Below are positions 1 through 38,388 of a stretch of 64,000 nt of DNA, one piece after another. This stretch comes from a virus, in IMG/VR virus record IMGVR_UViG_3300050821_017626, positions 1-64,000 of that record; one strand, 5' to 3'. Below the pieces are notes generated by a model. It searched no databases. It worked only from the letters and a program-made list of their open reading frames with translations, and was not told the origin of the DNA. The position numbers and the translations under genes are program-made. Every line of letters starts with the position of its first letter. The first letter of the stretch is position 1.

Positions 1-816
1 AGCGGCCCTCGCTAACTTCTGCGCTACCTCTCGCGAACCTTTGACCCCGGCTTTATCAATATCATAGCAGACGTAGATGATCTTCCCTTTGAACAGCGTG
101 CCCCAGTCATCAGGAAGCGAGCCTTCCCCTCCGGTGAAAGTGAGGGCGTTCTTGATGCCGAAATCCCACATCCGCAGCAGGTCTTTTTCTCCGGCAGCCA
201 GAACGATCTCATCTATTTGCAGCGCCTCGACCGGGAAGCAGCGAACCCCGCCGTGGCCGCGCGCCCAGTGACAATACTTCGGCTTGGTGTTCGGGTTGTA
301 GCGGCGGATATCGACCCACTCCCCTGCGACATCCCGAATGGGGATGGTAATGCGCGAGGGACCGGGCTCACCTCGCATCCATCCGATCTTGAAGTGACGC
401 AGGGTGGCCGGAGATATGCCCAGGATTTTGCCGACCCGTTGCACCAACTCGGTATTGGAGAACAGGAACTGGTGGTGTTGGAGCACCACCTGATCGTCGA
501 TCTCCTTGAGGATCTCCAGTTCCCTCGCCAGTTCCCGGATGGCCTGTGCGTTGTTCTTGATGCCTTTGGCGAGGCGGTAGAGGTCAATAATATCTCCGTC
601 GGGCTTACTGCAGTTGCTGCTGAAACAATGCCAAAGTCCGGTCGTGGTGTTGAAAGAAGCCGAACGAGTGTCATGGGTATGCTCGTGCGCAAGACAGAAG
701 AACGCCGCCTCGCCCTCAGCGTTTATTCCTTCAAACTCCACGAACTTTTGTGCCCAGTCGAGGTAGCCGATCTTTTTTTCGATCTCTTTTTTTACCAACT
801 GGGCTAGTTTTGACAC
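1..816 (-). CDS. DNA primase (zinc-binding + TOPRIM), 3' end outside window
   Basis: Not in the ORF track because it runs off the edge. GTG at 816 after an AAGGGA RBS reads MSKLAQLVKKEIEKK...FFCLAHEH...LWHCFSSNC (CHC2-like Zn finger)...AGEKD...YVCYDIDKAG (TOPRIM E and DxD). Confidence 0.85.
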   Translation of the reverse strand, partial: MSKLAQLVKKEIEKKIGYLDWAQKFVEFEGINAEGEAAFFCLAHEHTHDTRSASFNTTTGLWHCFSSNCSKPDGDIIDLYRLAKGIKNNAQAIRELARELEILKEIDDQVVLQHHQFLFSNTELVQRVGKILGISPATLRHFKIGWMRGEPGPSRITIPIRDVAGEWVDIRRYNPNTKPKYCHWARGHGGVRCFPVEALQIDEIVLAAGEKDLLRMWDFGIKNALTFTGGEGSLPDDWGTLFKGKIIYVCYDIDKAGVKGSREVAQKLARAA

Positions 817-23599: not shown

Positions 23600-24442
23600 A
23601 TGAGTGATGTAGTGTTGCATTTCAAAGATGAAACTTCGCAAGAATGTAAGAGCGTGTGCCATGCAATTGCCTTTTCAATGTTCTATGACGAGGAAAAGAT
23701 TGTCGACCGGATTGAACTGAAGGGCGAGCGGGTGTTTCCCGAGGGAGTGAAACCAGAGTACTGGCCACGTTATTGGGATCAGTGGGCAACGGCGGGGATG
23801 GGGCAGGGATTGGGTCGGAGCAAGTTTTTGCAGGAGAAGAAACGGATGATGGAACAGTATGCGCGGACGGAAGAGGAGGAATTGGCGGCGCTGGATGCCA
23901 GTATCGCGGAGCTTGAGGGACGGAAGCAGACGCCGGTCAATCGGAAAAGCTCGCTCATCATCTCGGCGCTTATGACTTCTTCCTCGATTGAGGAGGCGGC
24001 GGCGAAGGCGAAGGTGTCGGGAAAAACCGTGAGCACGCTGTTGCGGGACCCGGATTTCCAGCGGGAATATTATGCGGCACAGAAGATGACGACGGCGCAC
24101 GTCGTGATCTATCTCAAGAATATGTTTGGGGATGTGGTGCAGCGGCTTTATGAGATCCTGTGCAATGAAAGCCATGCGGTGAGTGCTCGGGTGCAGGCGG
24201 CAGGGTTGCTGATGCGGTATTCGTTTGAGATGATTCAGCGGGACGTGGACGAAAAATTCAAAGAGGAAATCCGCTACTTTATAGCTGAGATCAAGGCGCG
24301 CCAGCTAGGTCAGGGTCAGGTTCCTACAATGAAATTAATGGCGCTGGCGGAGGCGGGCGATGAAGAGGCGGAGTTCTATGGGGAAGCGATGGTAGCGGAG
24401 GTGGATAGTAGCGAAGGGATAGGTGGAGGGGTGGGCAGTTGA
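23600..24442 (+). CDS. Terminase small subunit (HTH-type)
   Basis: HTH SIEEAAAKAKVSGKTVSTLLRDPDF, ARVQAA, and overlap with the TerL start. Confidence 0.65.
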   Translation: MSDVVLHFKDETSQECKSVCHAIAFSMFYDEEKIVDRIELKGERVFPEGVKPEYWPRYWDQWATAGMGQGLGRSKFLQEKKRMMEQYARTEEEELAALDASIAELEGRKQTPVNRKSSLIISALMTSSSIEEAAAKAKVSGKTVSTLLRDPDFQREYYAAQKMTTAHVVIYLKNMFGDVVQRLYEILCNESHAVSARVQAAGLLMRYSFEMIQRDVDEKFKEEIRYFIAEIKARQLGQGQVPTMKLMALAEAGDEEAEFYGEAMVAEVDSSEGIGGGVGS

Positions 24443-25431
24443 AGCTCACGCTGAATGATCTGGATGTGAGTAAGCCGTCCGATGTTTTGGGGGTGCTGCA
24501 GGCGGAAAAGAAGCGTAAAGATTTATTGCGGGAGTTGAAGCTGGAGTTGCAGGCTGCTTCGACAACGGATTTTTCTGACTTTCAGAAGACAGGTCTCAGG
24601 ATTTTCAAGCGGCCGGATATATTTGCCAGGGAATATGTCAGGTGGCCAGAGGGAGAGAAGCTTACTGCCTATCAGGAGGAGCTTCTACTCGCTATTCCCA
24701 CCAAAGAGCGTATCGCGGTGCGGGGGCCGCGCGGGCTCGGAAAGTCCTGTCTCGCCGCCCTGGCAGTGCTCTGGTTCTGCCTGAGTCGTGAGAGTCTGGG
24801 GGTCGATTACAAGTGTATTATTACAGCCGGTTCAGCAAATCAGCTTCGTAGGTACCTTTTCCCGGAGATACGCAAGTGGGCACTTCGCCTCGATTTCGAT
24901 AAGATCGGCAGGCCAAAGTTCTGCGAACGGAGCGAGCTGCTCAAAGATGCACTACAGATGTCACACGGCGAGGCGTTTTGCGTGAGTCCCGATCAGCCGT
25001 CCTTGCTGGAAGGGCTTCATGCCTCCGAAGTGCTGGTCGTGATCGATGAGGCAAAGACGGTGTGTGACGAGATATTTCACAGCGTTGAGGGCTTCTTCTC
25101 ATCGGCGGGAAAAGACAGCGGCAAACATGCCTTCGCCATTGCGATTTCAACACCATCAATCCCAGTGGGAATGTTCTATCGGCTGCACAGGCGAGAGCCT
25201 GGATTGACCCACTGGCACGCGAGGCATGTCAAATTGGATGAGGCCCTGGCCGCAGGGACGATTACCCAGGAGTATGTTGATCGGCTGGCGGCGCAGTTTG
25301 GCAAGGATTCGTCCTTCTTCCAGCAGCAGGTGCTGGGCGAATTTGCGGCAGATGATGACAGCGGAATTATCTCCTTAGATTGGATACTAAGGGCGTGTGA
25401 TCGATACGAAGAGGAATTAGAGAATGCTTGA
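24439..25431 (+). CDS. Terminase large subunit, N-terminal ATPase domain only
   Basis: Walker A RGPRGLGKS, Walker B VVIDEA, coupling motif ISTP and VLGEF. It stops at IISLDWILRACDRYEEELENA, before the nuclease domain. Confidence 0.88.
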   Translation: MKLTLNDLDVSKPSDVLGVLQAEKKRKDLLRELKLELQAASTTDFSDFQKTGLRIFKRPDIFAREYVRWPEGEKLTAYQEELLLAIPTKERIAVRGPRGLGKSCLAALAVLWFCLSRESLGVDYKCIITAGSANQLRRYLFPEIRKWALRLDFDKIGRPKFCERSELLKDALQMSHGEAFCVSPDQPSLLEGLHASEVLVVIDEAKTVCDEIFHSVEGFFSSAGKDSGKHAFAIAISTPSIPVGMFYRLHRREPGLTHWHARHVKLDEALAAGTITQEYVDRLAAQFGKDSSFFQQQVLGEFAADDDSGIISLDWILRACDRYEEELENA

Positions 25432-34269: not shown

Positions 34270-37043
34270 GGGTTAGTCCTCCTCGGGAGAGAGCAGCGTA
34301 TCAACAATATCACAGGCAAGGGAGAAGCCGGCATCGGCCGTTACCTCGTCAACATAGAGTCGATGAGTAGGGGGCAGATCGGTTAGAGTGGGCAGATCGT
34401 AAAGACGCCGAAGGAGAGTGGGCAGGGATTCGGGAGAGACGGAACAGCGGATGCCTGTTGCTAGGACAGCTCCTTCAGGGAATCTACTGCAAGGATCTAG
34501 ACGGCGCTCTATGGGTTCGTAGGTATCGGTTTCCTGGCGATAGCACGCCTCAAGATGGGAGTCGATGCCTTGATTGACAGCGGCAATGACGGCCGCAGCG
34601 TCGGAACTGACGAGTTCCATGCGGTAGGGCTTGCCTTGCATGGCCGATCTGATCTGTTCGTAAGTGACGGTGCCATGGTCGTCAATGTAGCCGATTATGT
34701 TGGTGTCGGTCATGGTCATGGTCGGTTCCTCTTTCTAGCCGTTGTCAGACGACCGATAGTAGTTTGGGCATGGCCACACCTCTGTGTTCTTTGGCAAGCG
34801 GGATATCCCTGCCCATTCTTTGGCGCGTTCCCTTGCTTGTGCCTCCCCTACTGGGGAAGAGAAGCGGAACGTCATGGCATTCTCTGATTCGGGGAAGCGA
34901 ACCCACCATAAGACGCAAGTGCCGAACATAGTTGTGTCCTCCTTTCCGAGTCGTGCGGTGATCAGCCGACCTTTCGCCATGTGAGTGTTGACGCGGCCCG
35001 TGCCTCCTCCACTTCTTGACAGCGTAGAAGCTCTTCCTCGGTCGCAAGGCGGGCGACATAGGCGGTGCGGGGACCATGAGCGCCCGTGAGCATGTGGGCG
35101 CGCTTCTCGGCCGTCTCTTGGTCGTACAGATCGGGTGTGGCCATTCGGCGAATGAGCTTGCCCCCGGAGTAGAACTGCGCTTCAACGACGAAGGTCGGTT
35201 TCATCGAGTCCACCCTTCCCCGGTAGGAGCCCAATCGAGTCCGCCGGTATGGCGGCTGTTGAGAAGATGGGCCGCTAGGCGAGCGAGCCACGCGAAAGGA
35301 AAGCGGTAGATGGGACGGCCGTCGGATGGGCTGAAGACTTCATAGCGCATGTCAAGATCCTCCTCTTAGGCGCGTTAAGCGAATTGTATAGGGCGGTTTG
35401 GAGTGCAAGCTGGACAGAATCCCTCGGAACTCAAGTCGCTTGTGGCAGCGTAGAAGGTGCATCCTGCAGCGTTACACTGCAGCAGCAGTTCCCCGTCAAC
35501 GGCCGCTAGTGCCTCCTCACGGGTGGAGTATACTTCGTCGGTCTCCTCTTGGTCGGAAGATTTCCAAACAATCCAACAGTCGTGGAGACCTACCGACATA
35601 TCTCCTGCTTCGAAGTAAATCTGCGGGTAGCCGTACGGGTAGCATGTGCCGAGTGGGTAGTAAACGACGTTCTTAACATGTGAAGCGCGAATGAACTTCA
35701 CCATCAGCGAATCTCCACTTGGAACTTGGTCGGGACGGCAAGGAAGCGCTTGTCCCATCGCTGCATGAAGGCGCGCATTTTGGCAGTAGGGGAGAAGGAT
35801 GGTCCGGTTCCCCAGTGATTGATTGTGACGGAGCATAGGTCCGGCATGGCGTAAACTCTGGTTGTCGAGAGGTACTCTCGGATGAGAGCGCAAGCGATGG
35901 GACAGTTTGAGGGGGATACACCTCCTTCTTGCTGACGGAGTTCAGTGGCTCGGTCGATATCCTGCTGGGTGACTGAGATGTTACGCTTCATGGTCGGTTT
36001 CTCCAGTGTGTATAAGTGTGTATAGCAGTGTGTAGGGTTACTTGCCTGTGTCGGGTGGGTTTCCTTTACATCCGCCCGCGTACCACATGGTACGGCCTTC
36101 CCAATATGAGCAACGCTCATAAGCTTTTTCTAAAGATTCTTTCAATCCTCTGTTTTCCTCCTGAAGGGCAAGTACTTGGTCAATCGCCTTGTCGGCCATG
36201 GCCTGGTAATGTCTGGCTTGATTTTTTGCATCTTGCAGTTCGAGTCGAATCGTTTCGTTGTCCTTCATGGTGTCCTCACAAAATCAACAGTATGAATGTG
36301 TAACCCGTCCTTTGAACGGATGGGAGTAACCTTCACTTGCCAACGTTGCCCACATTTACAGGTTCGCTTGACGACTAAAGTAGCTTGTGACATGAGAGGA
36401 GTTCCCGGCAGTATCCGATCACAATCGGGACACTTAAAGCATACTTTCGTAGTGGGCATCTTCAGAGTCCCCTGTATGGGTTTCGAGTGGAAACATTGAC
36501 AACCAGAGTCTCAGTCTGAGATTCAAAGGTTCTATTCGTTGTATCCTGTGTCCAATGAATTCCTACCCCCTTTCAAGCCACACAACGTGGCCCGCGAGAA
36601 GGTTCCGGCGATGGGCCATCAGCTCTTTGGGGGTGAAGAGGGAGGAAGCAGGTTCCTGGCCGACGCCAGACCAACAGAGATCCGGTTCGCAGATTTCGCA
36701 AGTGGCCTCATCCTCACAGCCGCAGCCGTAGTCACAGGAGAGGCAATGGGAGCGTTCCTCGGCCATGGCGTCAAGGATTGCGACTTCAAGCTTCGCCTTA
36801 TGGGTCCGGTTGATTAAGGTATGATCTTCCGGGTAGGCCAGGATAACAGCGACCGACGAGGGTTCGCAGTCGCGGTGCCAGTAGGAGGCACAGTAGTACG
36901 TATAGCGGCCCATGGTCAGTTACTCCAAACCGCGTTAGCGGCGAAGGTCGAAAGAAGGTAGCCGATAAGGAAGCCAGAGAGAACGACGGTGAGATAGCGG
37001 AACATGGTTGTGCCTTTCTGCAGTAGGTATCCTGCGACTCGTT

Positions 37044-37096
37044 CCCCTTTCGCCCATCGCTGGGCTCATCAGTACCCGACTAGCCGGGTAGAGGGG
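37044..37096 (-). ncRNA. Type III hammerhead ribozyme (HHR-B)
   Basis: CCCCU-C^-UACCCGG(CUAG)UCGGGUA-CUGAUGA-GCCCA(GCGA)UGGGC-GAAA-GGGG; all core nucleotides and three stems present. Confidence 0.92.
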
Positions 37097-37288
37097 TCAC
37101 CGCTCCCGTAAGAGCGGTGAGGTGATGTATACATTGACGGTGGAGCCGTATTGGTCGCGAGTGGGCTCCAATTCAACAGTGACGACTTCAACAGGGTCGA
37201 CGCGGTGAGGGAACTTGATAACTTCCGAGTCGATCATGGTCCCCAGCCGACCGTCGAAGGTGATGAGTTTCCCGAATACATACTTCAT
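37097..37288 (-). CDS. 63-aa protein enclosed by two hammerheads
   Basis: ATG at 37288, 9 nt after AAAGGGG; the stop codon abuts HHR-B. Confidence 0.65.
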   Translation of the reverse strand: MKYVFGKLITFDGRLGTMIDSEVIKFPHRVDPVEVVTVELEPTRDQYGSTVNVYITSPLLRER

Positions 37289-37297
37289 GGTGTCGTT

Positions 37298-37349
37298 CCC
37301 CTTTCGGCTGTCGCCAGCCATCATCAGCGAGCGCTATTGCTCGGAGGGG
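37298..37349 (-). ncRNA. Type III hammerhead ribozyme (HHR-A)
   Basis: CCCCU-C^-CGAGC(AAUAGC)GCUCG-CUGAUGA-U-GGCUG(GCGA)CAGCC-GAAA-GGGG; one extra U after A9. Confidence 0.88.
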
Positions 37350-38008
37350 TTCCGCTGCCTTCACCGTCTCATCCTGTCGCATTCAGGCGGGATTGTGGCA
37401 GCGGGGCCGCTTCTGGCGTGTTGACCGCGTACCACGGCAACCGCCAGGGAAAGCGCGCTATGAAGTTCCTCGCTCTGCGTTGTGCAAACTCGGCAGCGAG
37501 CGAACGTTGTCAAGGTTCCGACGGCAGGCTCTCATCCTGCGCGCTATGCGGTGCCTTCCTTATATAAGGAAGGGCCGCGTTGTTTGGGTTAGCGGCGGTT
37601 GCGCCTTCTAGGCAAGCGAACAACTATCTCGCCAGGGAATGCTTCGCCATTGGCTATACGATCAGCCAGCAGCATACGCATTCGGCCGATTTCTCCCGCT
37701 GTTCCTGATACTTGCCCAACCTTGGGCGCCCAAAGAATAGCTTTCCGCATATCATCCTCTCTAGCGGCGGCTGATTGTGTAAAACGGGCAGCCAGCGTTA
37801 ACCCAAACGATGATACCGACGATGCTGGCCAGCAGAAGGCCGGCTTTCGTGACTACTGCGAACAGCGTTGCTTCCATTCCTCGTTCCTCCTTGCGTCATA
37901 ACCGTTATGGTTATCGGTTGGTCGGTCAGGTTTCTTTAGGTCGGTTGGGTGAAGTAATCCTCTCCGATTGTCCCCGAGGGGAGGGAGAGGAGGAGGTCAC
38001 TCCATCCT

Positions 38009-38065
38009 GTGCCTTGCTCTTCGTTATACGCGGGCTTGCAACCGCCGTCGGCCGAGTTAAGGCGC
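38009..38065 (-). ncRNA. Type P1 twister ribozyme
   Basis: GCCU-U^AA-CUCG-GC-CGACG-GCGG-UUGCAAGC-CCGC-GUAUAA-CGAA-GAGCA-AGGC. P1, P2, P4 and both pseudoknots (UGC/GCA, GC/GC) can be formed. Confidence 0.82.
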
Positions 38066-38358: not shown

Positions 38359-38388
38359 AGTATAGCACAGGGTGACGCTATGGGTCAA
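38359..38388 (-). promoter_or_regulatory. sigma70-type promoter of the leftward block with a tandem operator-like repeat
   Basis: TTGACC-N18-TATACT with extended TG; GGGTGACGC repeated at 38370 and 38392. Confidence 0.65.

What the first reader, a model, noticed from the sequence alone, without database searches (positions are those of the whole stretch)
37044..37349. One small gene enclosed by two co-oriented hammerhead ribozymes: a self-excising, possibly circularising mRNA unit
Seen: two complete type III hammerheads on the minus strand bracket a 63-aa ORF. They share stem III (CCCCUC...GAAAGGGG) and the downstream AACGA but have different, fully paired stems I and II, so structure rather than sequence is conserved. 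Predicted cuts at 37344/37343 and 37091/37090 release a 253-nt RNA carrying the whole ORF. Known: hammerheads leave 5'-OH and 2',3'-cyclic phosphate ends, which RtcB-type ligases join, and tandem type III hammerheads are the retrozyme architecture. Inference: ligation would rebuild a complete hammerhead in a coding circle, so this could be a phage circular mRNA or an RNA-mediated gene cassette.
Basis: partly seen in the sequence, partly recalled or inferred. Interest (0 to 1): 0.92.

Follow-up and report, generated by a model that had tools for sequence, protein, structure and literature searches.

The report
Two hammerhead ribozymes flank phage gene
Two genuine-looking self-cutting hammerhead RNAs bracket a 63-codon orphan gene in an uncultured 96-kb phage; this layout has been known in phages since 2011 and most likely cuts a long message into single-gene pieces, while the proposed RNA circle is possible on paper but has no evidence.

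Summary
Two type III hammerheads lie on the minus strand at 37349-37298 and 37096-37044. Their predicted cuts (37344/37343 and 37091/37090) bound a 253-nt RNA that carries the whole 63-aa ORF. They are the only two hits in the 96-kb genome, against about 0.007 expected by chance. Relatives in metagenomes show strong compensatory changes in stems I and II. Rfam's Hammerhead_3 model does not detect them.

Hammerheads flanking small, non-conserved phage genes were described in 2011, when circular and spliced products were sought and not found. This scan's notes record the same layout in at least 42 other genomes.

The shared stem III has a plainer explanation than circularisation. In 15 of 17 family members checked, a start codon lies 5-9 nt (1 nt in one case) after the stem III 3' strand, which is GGGG in 14 of them. 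So that strand is most likely the ribosome-binding site.

A twister ribozyme 660 nt upstream and a Planctomycete contig with four twisters and two hammerheads point to a ribozyme-punctuated operon.

The excised RNA is predicted to re-form a nicked hybrid hammerhead, so ligation is not excluded. No ligase gene was found, and no RNA reads could be examined. It is not a retrozyme.

The parts
38359..38388 (-). Promoter-like site (TTGACC, 18 nt, TATACT with TG). Candidate start of the transcript that carries all three ribozymes.
   Evidence: Consensus scan. No terminator-like site on the minus strand between here and 36000. This is a consensus match only.
38011..38063 (-). Twister-P1-like ribozyme without P3, directly after the stop codon of a 48-aa ORF.
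   Evidence: Rfam RF03160 scores 37.5 bits, below the gathering score of 67.2 (E 5.7e-6 locally, 1.5e-4 for the window, 5.2e-8 for the genome). The T2 pseudoknot dinucleotide covaries across five copies: UG/CA, GG/CC, CG/CG, CC/GG.
37298..37349 (-). Hammerhead HH1, type III, with one extra U between A9 and G10.1.
   Evidence: It scores 49.6 bits with my own model R1, but it was one of the 14 sequences used to build that model. An extra U at this position raised the cleavage rate in a viroid hammerhead (PMC3705267, citing De la Pena and Flores 2001).
37343..37344 (-). Predicted HH1 cleavage site, 3' of C17 at 37344.
   Evidence: Position within the motif. Inferred, not shown.
37298..37301 (-). 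GGGG of the stem III 3' strand of HH1. Likely Shine-Dalgarno sequence of the 63-aa ORF, 9 nt before its ATG.
   Evidence: The same spacing is seen in 15 of 17 family members checked. GGAACGA recurs before other start codons in this phage.
37097..37288 (-). ORF of 63 aa, an orphan with no known family.
   Evidence: One search lists this frame (37097-37324) as a 75-aa ORF from an upstream ATG inside HH1; the 63-aa reading starts at the in-frame ATG at 37288. There are no Pfam or PHROGs matches. The only hit among 5.8 billion proteins is itself. The protein atlas gives chance-level hits only.
37097..37120 (-). 10-bp hairpin with a UACG tetraloop that includes the stop codon and abuts HH2.
   Evidence: It is part of the MFE fold of the 253-nt product. 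GC-rich hairpins sit 0-1 nt upstream of most related hammerheads.
37044..37096 (-). Hammerhead HH2, type III, canonical core.
   Evidence: It scores 63.6 bits with model R1, but it was also one of that model's seeds.
37090..37091 (-). Predicted HH2 cleavage site, 3' of C17 at 37091.
   Evidence: Position within the motif. Inferred, not shown.
37091..37343 (-). Predicted 253-nt excised single-gene RNA: the HH1 body, the ribosome site, the ORF, the hairpin and CCCCUC.
   Evidence: Coordinates. The fold re-forms a hybrid stem III.
36916..37005 (-). Next gene, a 29-aa hydrophobic peptide. Its ATG lies 38 nt after HH2 and it has its own AAAGG ribosome site.

Best explanation
HH1 and HH2 are active type III hammerheads of a phage and prophage subfamily. 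Its module is: a GC-rich hairpin, then the hammerhead, then a ribosome-binding site built into the 3' strand of stem III, then a start codon.

Together with an upstream twister ribozyme, they punctuate an operon of small orphan genes that is probably transcribed from about 38360 on the minus strand. Co-transcriptional self-cleavage would cut the polycistronic RNA into single-gene pieces. One of these is a 253-nt mRNA for the 63-aa protein, with a 5'-OH end and a 2',3'-cyclic phosphate end.

Each upstream piece would end in a stable hairpin, which should resist 3' exonucleases. Each downstream piece would begin with the compact ribozyme body and a 5'-OH, a poor substrate for 5'-end-dependent decay. 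Its ribosome site would be freed once the 6-nt 5' strand of stem III leaves.

The identical stem III of the two copies follows from this ribosome-site role and from common descent, not from a need to circularise.

Shown: the motifs, their rarity by chance, covariation in relatives, the start-codon spacing, and the recurrence of the layout. Inferred: cleavage in vivo, one shared transcript, and the effects on stability and translation.
For: - Motifs and folds.
- Chance control: 0.007 hits per simulated genome under loose criteria, 0 of 300 under strict criteria.
- Covariation in 19 family members: 96% of cells paired, 11 of 15 pairs with changes on both sides, 0 of 500 shuffles reach the observed values, and slid controls collapse.
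- A start codon lies 5-9 nt after stem III (1 nt in one case) in 15 of 17 members checked. The downstream proteins are unrelated to one another.
- GC hairpins, several with UNCG tetraloops, abut the 5' side of most members.
- GGAACGA occurs in ribosome-site contexts elsewhere in this phage.
- The twister lies on the same strand. There is a promoter-like site upstream and no terminator-like site in between.
- L072, a Planctomycetaceae MAG contig, has four twisters and two hammerheads on one strand, lying between successive genes, in a similar order to the window.
- In a sample of IMG/VR contigs not chosen by stem III, 27 of 93 locus-strands carry two or more hammerheads, often 250-700 nt apart. 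111 of 136 hammerheads have a start codon within 40 nt.
- Literature: PMC3088659, PMC6155905, PMC6765202.
Against: - No RNA data exist for this phage, so cleavage, a shared transcript and the RNA ends are untested.
- Rfam's curated Hammerhead_3 model gives no match.
- HH1 has an extra core-adjacent U. One report says this is tolerated, but it was not tested here.
- HH2 keeps GGGGAACGA although no start codon follows for 38 nt, so the ribosome-site argument does not explain HH2's own stem III.
- The excised RNA is predicted to re-pair its ribosome site with the 3' CCCCUC. That fits a ligation-ready or translationally masked state as well as simple processing.
Confidence: 0.7

Rival explanations
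1. Circle and/or splice. After both cuts, the 253-nt RNA folds so that its 3' CCCCUC>p pairs with the GGGG of the HH1 body. The nick is then sealed by a host RtcB-type ligase or by the reverse hammerhead reaction, giving a circular coding RNA. By symmetry, the upstream fragment (ending in CCCCUC>p) could pair with the HH2 body and be joined to it, which would delete the cassette like an intron.
For: - The two stem III sequences are interchangeable.
- The MFE fold of the linear product already contains the hybrid stem III, with pair probabilities 0.85-0.96.
- The same holds for the tandem pairs in L053 (0.87-0.99) and L022 (0.77-0.87).
- HH2's stem III and AACGA are conserved with no start codon behind them.
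- Retrozymes and viroids show that such ends are ligated in other systems (PMC4918200 and PMC7229834, retrieved but not read; background knowledge).
Against: - Perreault et al. looked for circular and spliced products of such phage clusters and found neither (PMC3088659).
- No RtcB or RNA-ligase gene was found in the 96 kb, which is about 79% complete.
- Matching stem III is not general among tandem type III pairs: L208 b-c and L233 a-b do not match, and L009 pairs a type III with a type I.
- The hybrid stem has only 0.03-0.10 probability in L072.
- The hybrid stem would mask the ribosome site of the only ORF.
- The ORF has a stop codon and 253 is not a multiple of 3, so there is no endless reading frame.
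Confidence: 0.12
2. Decay or idle elements. One or both hammerheads cleave poorly in vivo, or merely trigger mRNA decay to lower expression. They would persist because they arrive with imported gene modules, and they would not yield a useful single-gene mRNA.
For: - HH1 carries an extra U next to the core, and stem III is only 5 bp.
- A second copy in L022 looks degenerate, with mismatches in stems II and III.
- Slow variants exist in phages (PMC3088659).
- The biological role of bacterial hammerheads is still called elusive (PMC6765202).
Against: - Both cores are otherwise intact, and all stems are kept by compensatory change between the two copies and across relatives.
- The fixed placement (hairpin before, ribosome site and start codon after) in 15 of 17 members argues for selection on a processing role.
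- An extra U at this position raised activity in one tested hammerhead.
Confidence: 0.1
3. Shuffling module. The hammerhead together with the gene that follows it is a recombination or RNA-mediated cassette. The conserved ~55-nt ribozyme would serve as the joint at which unrelated small genes are swapped between phages.
For: - Homologous hammerheads precede unrelated proteins in different contigs.
- The 63-aa ORF and its neighbours are orphans.
- L022 shows a recent duplication of a whole hammerhead.
Against: - No reverse transcriptase or dedicated recombinase lies beside the unit. The only integrase-like gene is 22 kb away.
- Only 13-22 nt are shared between the two copies at the DNA level.
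- There are no target-site duplications.
- No second phage carrying the same cassette at another place was found.
Confidence: 0.05

Closest known systems
Clustered hammerhead ribozymes flanking single genes or short gene blocks in prophages and phages (Perreault et al. 2011, PMC3088659; reviewed by De la Pena 2017, PMC6155905)
   Same: - Two or more co-oriented hammerheads a few hundred nt apart in phage DNA.
- They flank small, non-conserved ORFs of unknown function.
- The proposed role is processing of a polycistronic RNA.
- The circle and splice idea was already raised there.
   Different: - Here both copies are type III with an interchangeable 5-bp stem III.
- The stem III 3' strand serves as the ribosome site.
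- A hairpin abuts the 5' side.
- Rfam's type III model does not detect them.
Twister and hammerhead co-location in bacteria and phages (summarised in PMC6765202)
   Same: Self-cleaving ribozymes of different classes lie close together on one strand near phage genes. Here a twister lies 660 nt upstream of HH1. L072 has four twisters and two hammerheads.
   Different: The window's twister lacks P3 and scores below Rfam's threshold. It is supported by pseudoknot covariation, not by the curated score.
Plant and animal retrozymes (PMC4918200, PMC7229834)
   Same: Two hammerheads bound a unit that can be excised with 5'-OH and cyclic-phosphate ends and re-form a hammerhead across the nick.
   Different: - Retrozymes carry their ribozymes in long direct repeats.
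- They are non-coding, live in eukaryotic genomes and spread by reverse transcription.
- None of this applies here: only 13-22 nt are shared, the interior is coding, and the element is in a DNA phage.
Synthetic ribozyme insulators and ribosome-site-masking aptazymes in bacteria (RiboJ-type parts, hammerhead switches that hide the Shine-Dalgarno sequence; own knowledge, and reviews such as PMC12192606 and PMC8495972, retrieved but not read)
   Same: A hammerhead sits just upstream of a ribosome site. Cleavage removes the upstream RNA and frees or standardises the translation start.
   Different: Those are engineered parts. Here the arrangement is natural and recurrent, and it is joined to an upstream hairpin.
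Hammerheads directly upstream of ORFs in fungal and plant RNA viruses (PMC13725137)
   Same: The cleavage site lies a few nt before a start codon in an intergenic region, and a role in translation of the downstream ORF is proposed.
   Different: Those are type I motifs in eukaryotic RNA viruses. This is a type III motif in a DNA phage with bacterial ribosome sites.

Membership tests
Hammerhead ribozyme, type III | Conserved core: C3 U4 G5 A6 N7 G8 A9, G12 A13 A14, U16.1 H17 | tested here: met
   Both copies have CUGAUGA, GAAA and UC at the required places. HH1 has one extra U between A9 and G10.1.
Hammerhead ribozyme, type III | Three helices around the core, with I and II closed by loops and III open, and standard pairs next to the core | tested here: met
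   The MFE folds give exactly this junction. The pairs next to the core are 1.1-2.1 C-G (HH1) or U-A (HH2), 10.1-11.1 G-C, and 15.1-16.1 A-U.
Hammerhead ribozyme, type III | More than chance | tested here: met
   2 hits observed against 0.007 expected per genome under loose criteria, and 0 of 300 simulated genomes under strict criteria.
Hammerhead ribozyme, type III | Helices supported by covariation in relatives | tested here: met
   In 19 members, all 7 stem I pairs and 2 of 3 stem II pairs show changes on both sides, and 0 of 500 shuffles reach the observed values. Stem III was largely fixed by the search pattern, so it is uninformative.
Hammerhead ribozyme, type III | Rfam RF00008 gathering score (48.5 bits) | tested here: not met
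   No match at the gathering score or at E<=10. Only Hammerhead_II at 15 bits over HH2. Relatives reach 30-45 bits at best.
Hammerhead ribozyme, type III | Self-cleavage in Mg2+ | not testable with these tools
   This needs in vitro transcription.
Hammerhead ribozyme, type III | Loop I to loop II tertiary contact, needed for activity at low Mg2+ | not tested
   The loops are 6 nt (loop I) and GCGA (loop II). No structural test was run.
Clustered phage hammerheads flanking genes (Perreault 2011) | Two or more co-oriented hammerheads close together that flank a gene, in phage DNA | tested here: met
   The cut sites are 253 nt apart on the same strand. Portal, terminase, helicase, clamp and integrase genes show a phage, and the record is classed as a virus.
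Clustered phage hammerheads flanking genes (Perreault 2011) | Flanked genes are small and not conserved | tested here: met
   The 63-aa ORF is an orphan. Downstream proteins of related hammerheads are unrelated to one another.
Retrozyme | Hammerheads embedded in long direct repeats (hundreds of nt) | tested here: not met
   Only 13-22 nt are shared between the two copies.
Retrozyme | Non-coding interior with primer-binding and polypurine tracts, in a eukaryotic genome | tested here: not met
   The ORF occupies 192 of the 253 nt between the cuts, and the rest is ribozyme body, spacer and the CCCCUC tail. The host record is a DNA phage. Primer-binding and polypurine tracts themselves were not searched for.
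Retrozyme | Accumulation as circular RNA | not testable with these tools
Twister ribozyme, type P1 (neighbour at 38011-38063) | Rfam RF03160 gathering score (67.2 bits) | tested here: not met
   37.5 bits. P3 is missing.
Twister ribozyme, type P1 (neighbour at 38011-38063) | Conserved loop nucleotides and the T2 pseudoknot | tested here: met
   UAA, GCC, CAAGCC and GAG are present. The pseudoknot dinucleotide covaries with its partner in all five aligned copies.

The most novel reading that the evidence does not exclude
The interchangeable stem III lets the excised 253-nt RNA re-form a hammerhead across its own ends. A host ligase or the ribozyme itself then seals it, giving a circular protein-coding RNA in a phage-infected bacterium. 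The mirror reaction would rejoin the flanks, so a pair of hammerheads would act as a ribozyme-only intron around a gene.
Probability: 0.1. Interest if true: 0.75.

Novelty: new member of a known kind. Interest (0 to 1): 0.3.

Why it matters
What hammerhead and twister clusters do in phage genomes has been an open question since 2011. This locus does not answer it, but it is a compact test case: a promoter, a twister, two hammerheads and a 63-codon gene within 1.3 kb.

It also sharpens the question. In this subfamily the ribosome site is part of stem III and a stable hairpin abuts the 5' side. That predicts that cleavage both frees translation of the downstream gene and leaves a protected 3' end on the upstream one. 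These predictions can be tested with simple reporters.

Practically, Rfam's type III model misses the whole subfamily, so such ribozymes are probably under-annotated in phage genomes.

Tried and rejected
- Rfam at the gathering score and at E<=10 found no hammerhead match.
- Close relatives of the phage were not found. Megablast and blastn against 50,697 phage records gave nothing. The portal protein has only about 25% identity to Flavobacterium, Rhodothermus and Microcystis phages. The search for related loci with the 116-aa neighbour and with the portal gave nothing.
- Two stem-III-specific patterns in IMG/VR gave no hit and one chance hit at a stop codon plus ribosome site (L001).
- The homologue search for the 63-aa protein returned only itself. 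The protein atlas gave chance-level hits of 0.85.
So no RNA reads, RNA ends or junctions could be examined.
- About 100 of the 117 pattern hits in metagenomes and genomes contain the core letters only. They fail the descriptor and score about 20 bits with model R1, so they were discarded.
- RtcB (PF01139) and RNA ligase (PF09414) were absent from the phage record.
- I looked for a start codon just after HH2 that would explain its GGGGAACGA. There is none before the ATG 38 nt downstream.
- I considered a long-range hybrid between HH1's 5' strand and the HH2 body in the uncut RNA. I rejected it as a ribozyme, because the cleavage-site strand would not be contiguous with HH2's stem I.

Full report
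**What is there.** On the minus strand, 37349-37298 (HH1) and 37096-37044 (HH2) each read as a type III hammerhead.

- Stem III is CCCC-U paired with A-GGGG.
- The cleavage dinucleotide is UC.
- Stem I is a hairpin.
- The core CUGAUGA follows.
- Stem II is a hairpin with a GCGA loop, followed by GAAA.

HH2 is canonical. HH1 has one extra U between A9 and the first pair of stem II. ViennaRNA gives exactly the hammerhead three-way junction as the minimum-energy and centroid fold of both.

The predicted cuts, 37344/37343 and 37091/37090, bound 253 nt. This piece holds the ORF 37288-37097 (63 aa), and its stop codon UGA touches the CCCCUC of HH2.

**Is it more than chance?** A descriptor of my own required the core, UH, at least 4 bp in stem I, and at least 3 bp in each of stems II and III. 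It finds only these two sites in the whole 96,261-bp genome. Three hundred simulated genomes with the same dinucleotide make-up gave 0.007 hits per genome, and none at the stem lengths actually seen.

**Relatives and covariation.** A pattern search for the same stem III in metagenome and genome contigs, filtered by the descriptor, recovered related hammerheads. I built a covariance model from 14 of them (R1). It finds 19 distinct members, and only HH1 and HH2 in this phage.

| Measure on the 19-member alignment | Result |
|---|---|
| Pair cells that form standard pairs | 96% |
| Pairs with changes on both sides | 11 of 15 |
| Stem I pairs with changes on both sides | 7 of 7 |
| Shuffles reaching the observed values | 0 of 500 |
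| Paired cells when partners are slid by 1-3 columns | 33-55% |

Stem III was largely fixed by the search pattern and carries no information.

**The curated model fails.** Rfam's Hammerhead_3 gives nothing at its gathering score or at E<=10, in the window, in a 351-nt excerpt, or in the genome. Related members reach only 30-45 bits against a threshold of 48.5. I take this as a blind spot of that model for this subfamily, because every defining sequence and structure feature is met.

An extra nucleotide between A9 and G10.1 is known from a viroid hammerhead. A U at that place raised the trans-cleavage rate 3-4 fold (PMC3705267, citing De la Pena and Flores 2001).

**Context.** The record is an uncultured phage, about 79% complete, with portal, terminase, helicase, sliding clamp, exonuclease and integrase genes. 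It has no close relative in the phage collections.

The ribozymes lie in a run of small minus-strand orphan genes. The order along the minus strand is:

1. a promoter-like site at 38388-38359
2. a 48-aa ORF
3. a twister-P1-like motif at 38063-38011
4. a 38-aa hydrophobic ORF
5. a 53-aa ORF
6. a highly structured 250-nt stretch (z = -4.4)
7. HH1
8. the 63-aa ORF
9. HH2
10. a 29-aa hydrophobic ORF
11. a 116-aa ORF

No terminator-like site interrupts this strand.

The twister scores 37.5 bits, below Rfam's 67.2, and lacks P3. Aligned with four twisters from L072, the two pseudoknot nucleotides covary perfectly with their partners: UG/CA, GG/CC, CG/CG, CC/GG.

**What the relatives show.** Three features recur in the family members checked.

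- In 15 of the 17 hammerheads examined, a start codon of an ORF lies 5-9 nt (1 nt in one case) after the 3' strand of stem III, which is GGGG in 14 of them. That strand therefore reads as the Shine-Dalgarno sequence.
- The proteins that follow are unrelated to each other, apart from one orthologous pair.
- A GC-rich hairpin, several with UNCG tetraloops, sits 0-1 nt upstream of most members. At HH2 it is the 10-bp UACG hairpin at 37120-37097.

In this phage GGAACGA also precedes other start codons, and the 38-aa ORF has AAGGAGGAACGAG before its ATG. So the shared GAAAGGGGAACGA is a ribosome-site context.

Tandem pairs occur in the window, L072, L053, L022 (a recent duplicate), and L009, where a type III is followed by a type I.

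L072 is a 9.2-kb Planctomycetaceae MAG contig. It has four twisters and two hammerheads on one strand, lying between successive genes, in a similar order to the window: twister, small hydrophobic ORF, hammerhead, ~70-aa ORF, hammerhead, hydrophobic ORF.

**How common is the layout?** I took a sample of 120 IMG/VR contigs with a pattern that does not constrain stem III. It held 136 descriptor-valid hammerheads, 109 of type I and 27 of type III.

- 27 of 93 locus-strands had two or more, many 250-700 nt apart.
- 111 of 136 had a start codon within 40 nt (median 19).

The literature says the same. Perreault et al. [quoted passage not shown] They showed cleavage of three such clusters, raised spliced or circular products, and reported detecting neither (PMC3088659). 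De la Pena's 2017 review describes hammerheads close together flanking ORFs for small non-conserved proteins (PMC6155905). This scan's own notes list the layout in at least 42 other genomes.

**The circle hypothesis.**

For it:
- The two stem III sequences are interchangeable.
- The 253-nt product is predicted to re-form a nicked hybrid hammerhead in its minimum-energy fold (pair probabilities 0.85-0.96).
- The same holds for L053 and L022, but not for L072.
- HH2 keeps GGGGAACGA without a start codon for 38 nt, which the ribosome-site argument does not explain.

Against it:
- The only published attempt found no circles.
- The phage record has no RtcB or RNA ligase gene.
- Matching stem III is not general among tandem type III pairs in the wider sample: L208 a-b match, while L208 b-c and L233 a-b do not.
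- L009 mixes ribozyme topologies.
- The hybrid stem would hide the ribosome site of the only ORF.

The retrozyme comparison fails on its defining features: there are no long repeats, the interior is coding, and the element is in a DNA phage.

**Most likely mechanism (confidence about 0.7).** The ribozymes process a polycistronic transcript co-transcriptionally into single-gene RNAs.

- Each upstream piece ends in a hairpin plus CCCCUC with a cyclic phosphate.
- Each downstream piece starts with a 5'-OH and the folded ribozyme body.
- Its ribosome site is released when the 6-nt strand dissociates.

This uncouples the stability and translation of neighbouring small genes. The motifs, their placement and their recurrence are shown. 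Cleavage in vivo, the shared transcript and the effects on expression are inferred.

**Verdict.** This is a real and clean example of a known kind, and the scan has seen it before on other DNA. Three details deserve a note: the ribosome site inside stem III, the abutting hairpin, and the failure of Rfam's model on this subfamily. The circular-mRNA reading remains possible at roughly one in ten.

Noticed in passing
window 38011-38063 (-): A twister-P1-like ribozyme without P3 lies directly after the stop codon of a 48-aa ORF and 660 nt upstream of HH1. It scores below Rfam's threshold (37.5 of 67.2 bits), but its T2 pseudoknot covaries with four twisters of L072.
   Followed up: yes
window 37350-37600 (-): The 250-nt stretch between the 53-aa ORF and HH1 folds far better than shuffles (-108 kcal/mol, z = -4.4, 0 of 200 shuffles as good). 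It contains two copies of CAGGAUGAGA and overlaps a doubtful 50-aa TTG ORF. It could be a structured RNA or a further processing element. No Rfam family matches.
   Followed up: partly
L072 835-3427 (-) (Planctomycetaceae MAG PNLP01000134.1): Four twister-P1 motifs (43.6-58.5 bits, all below Rfam's threshold) and two type III hammerheads lie on one strand between six consecutive genes.
   Followed up: partly
L009, L020, L022, L053, L066, L072 and window 37097-37120: A GC-rich hairpin, often with a UNCG tetraloop (UCCG, UUCG, UACG), sits 0-1 nt upstream of nearly every hammerhead of this subfamily. It is a likely protective 3' end for the upstream cleavage product.
   Followed up: partly
L220 (IMG/VR contig), 237-290 and 717-770 (+); 925-869 and 445-389 (-): A 480-nt repeat unit carries type III hammerheads in both polarities. 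This is the signature of a viroid-like circular RNA assembled as a concatemer. It is unrelated to the window.
   Followed up: no
window 24520-25407 (+) and 12323-11919 (-), compared with L048: A single 526-residue open frame (stop to stop) in the distantly related phage contig L048 matches two separate places in the window (37% and 36% identity). The 24439-25431 ORF hits PHROGs large terminase, so this fits a large terminase split into two genes here.
   Followed up: no
L009 438-491 and about 700-790 (+): A type III hammerhead, a 71-aa ORF and then a type I hammerhead. A gene can be flanked by ribozymes of different topology, which cannot re-form a hybrid ribozyme.
   Followed up: partly
Rfam RF00008 against the subfamily (L050, L066, L009, window): No member of this 19-sequence hammerhead subfamily reaches the Hammerhead_3 gathering score. 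The best is 45.3 of 48.5 bits, and the window's two copies are not reported at all. Such phage hammerheads are likely under-annotated.
   Followed up: partly
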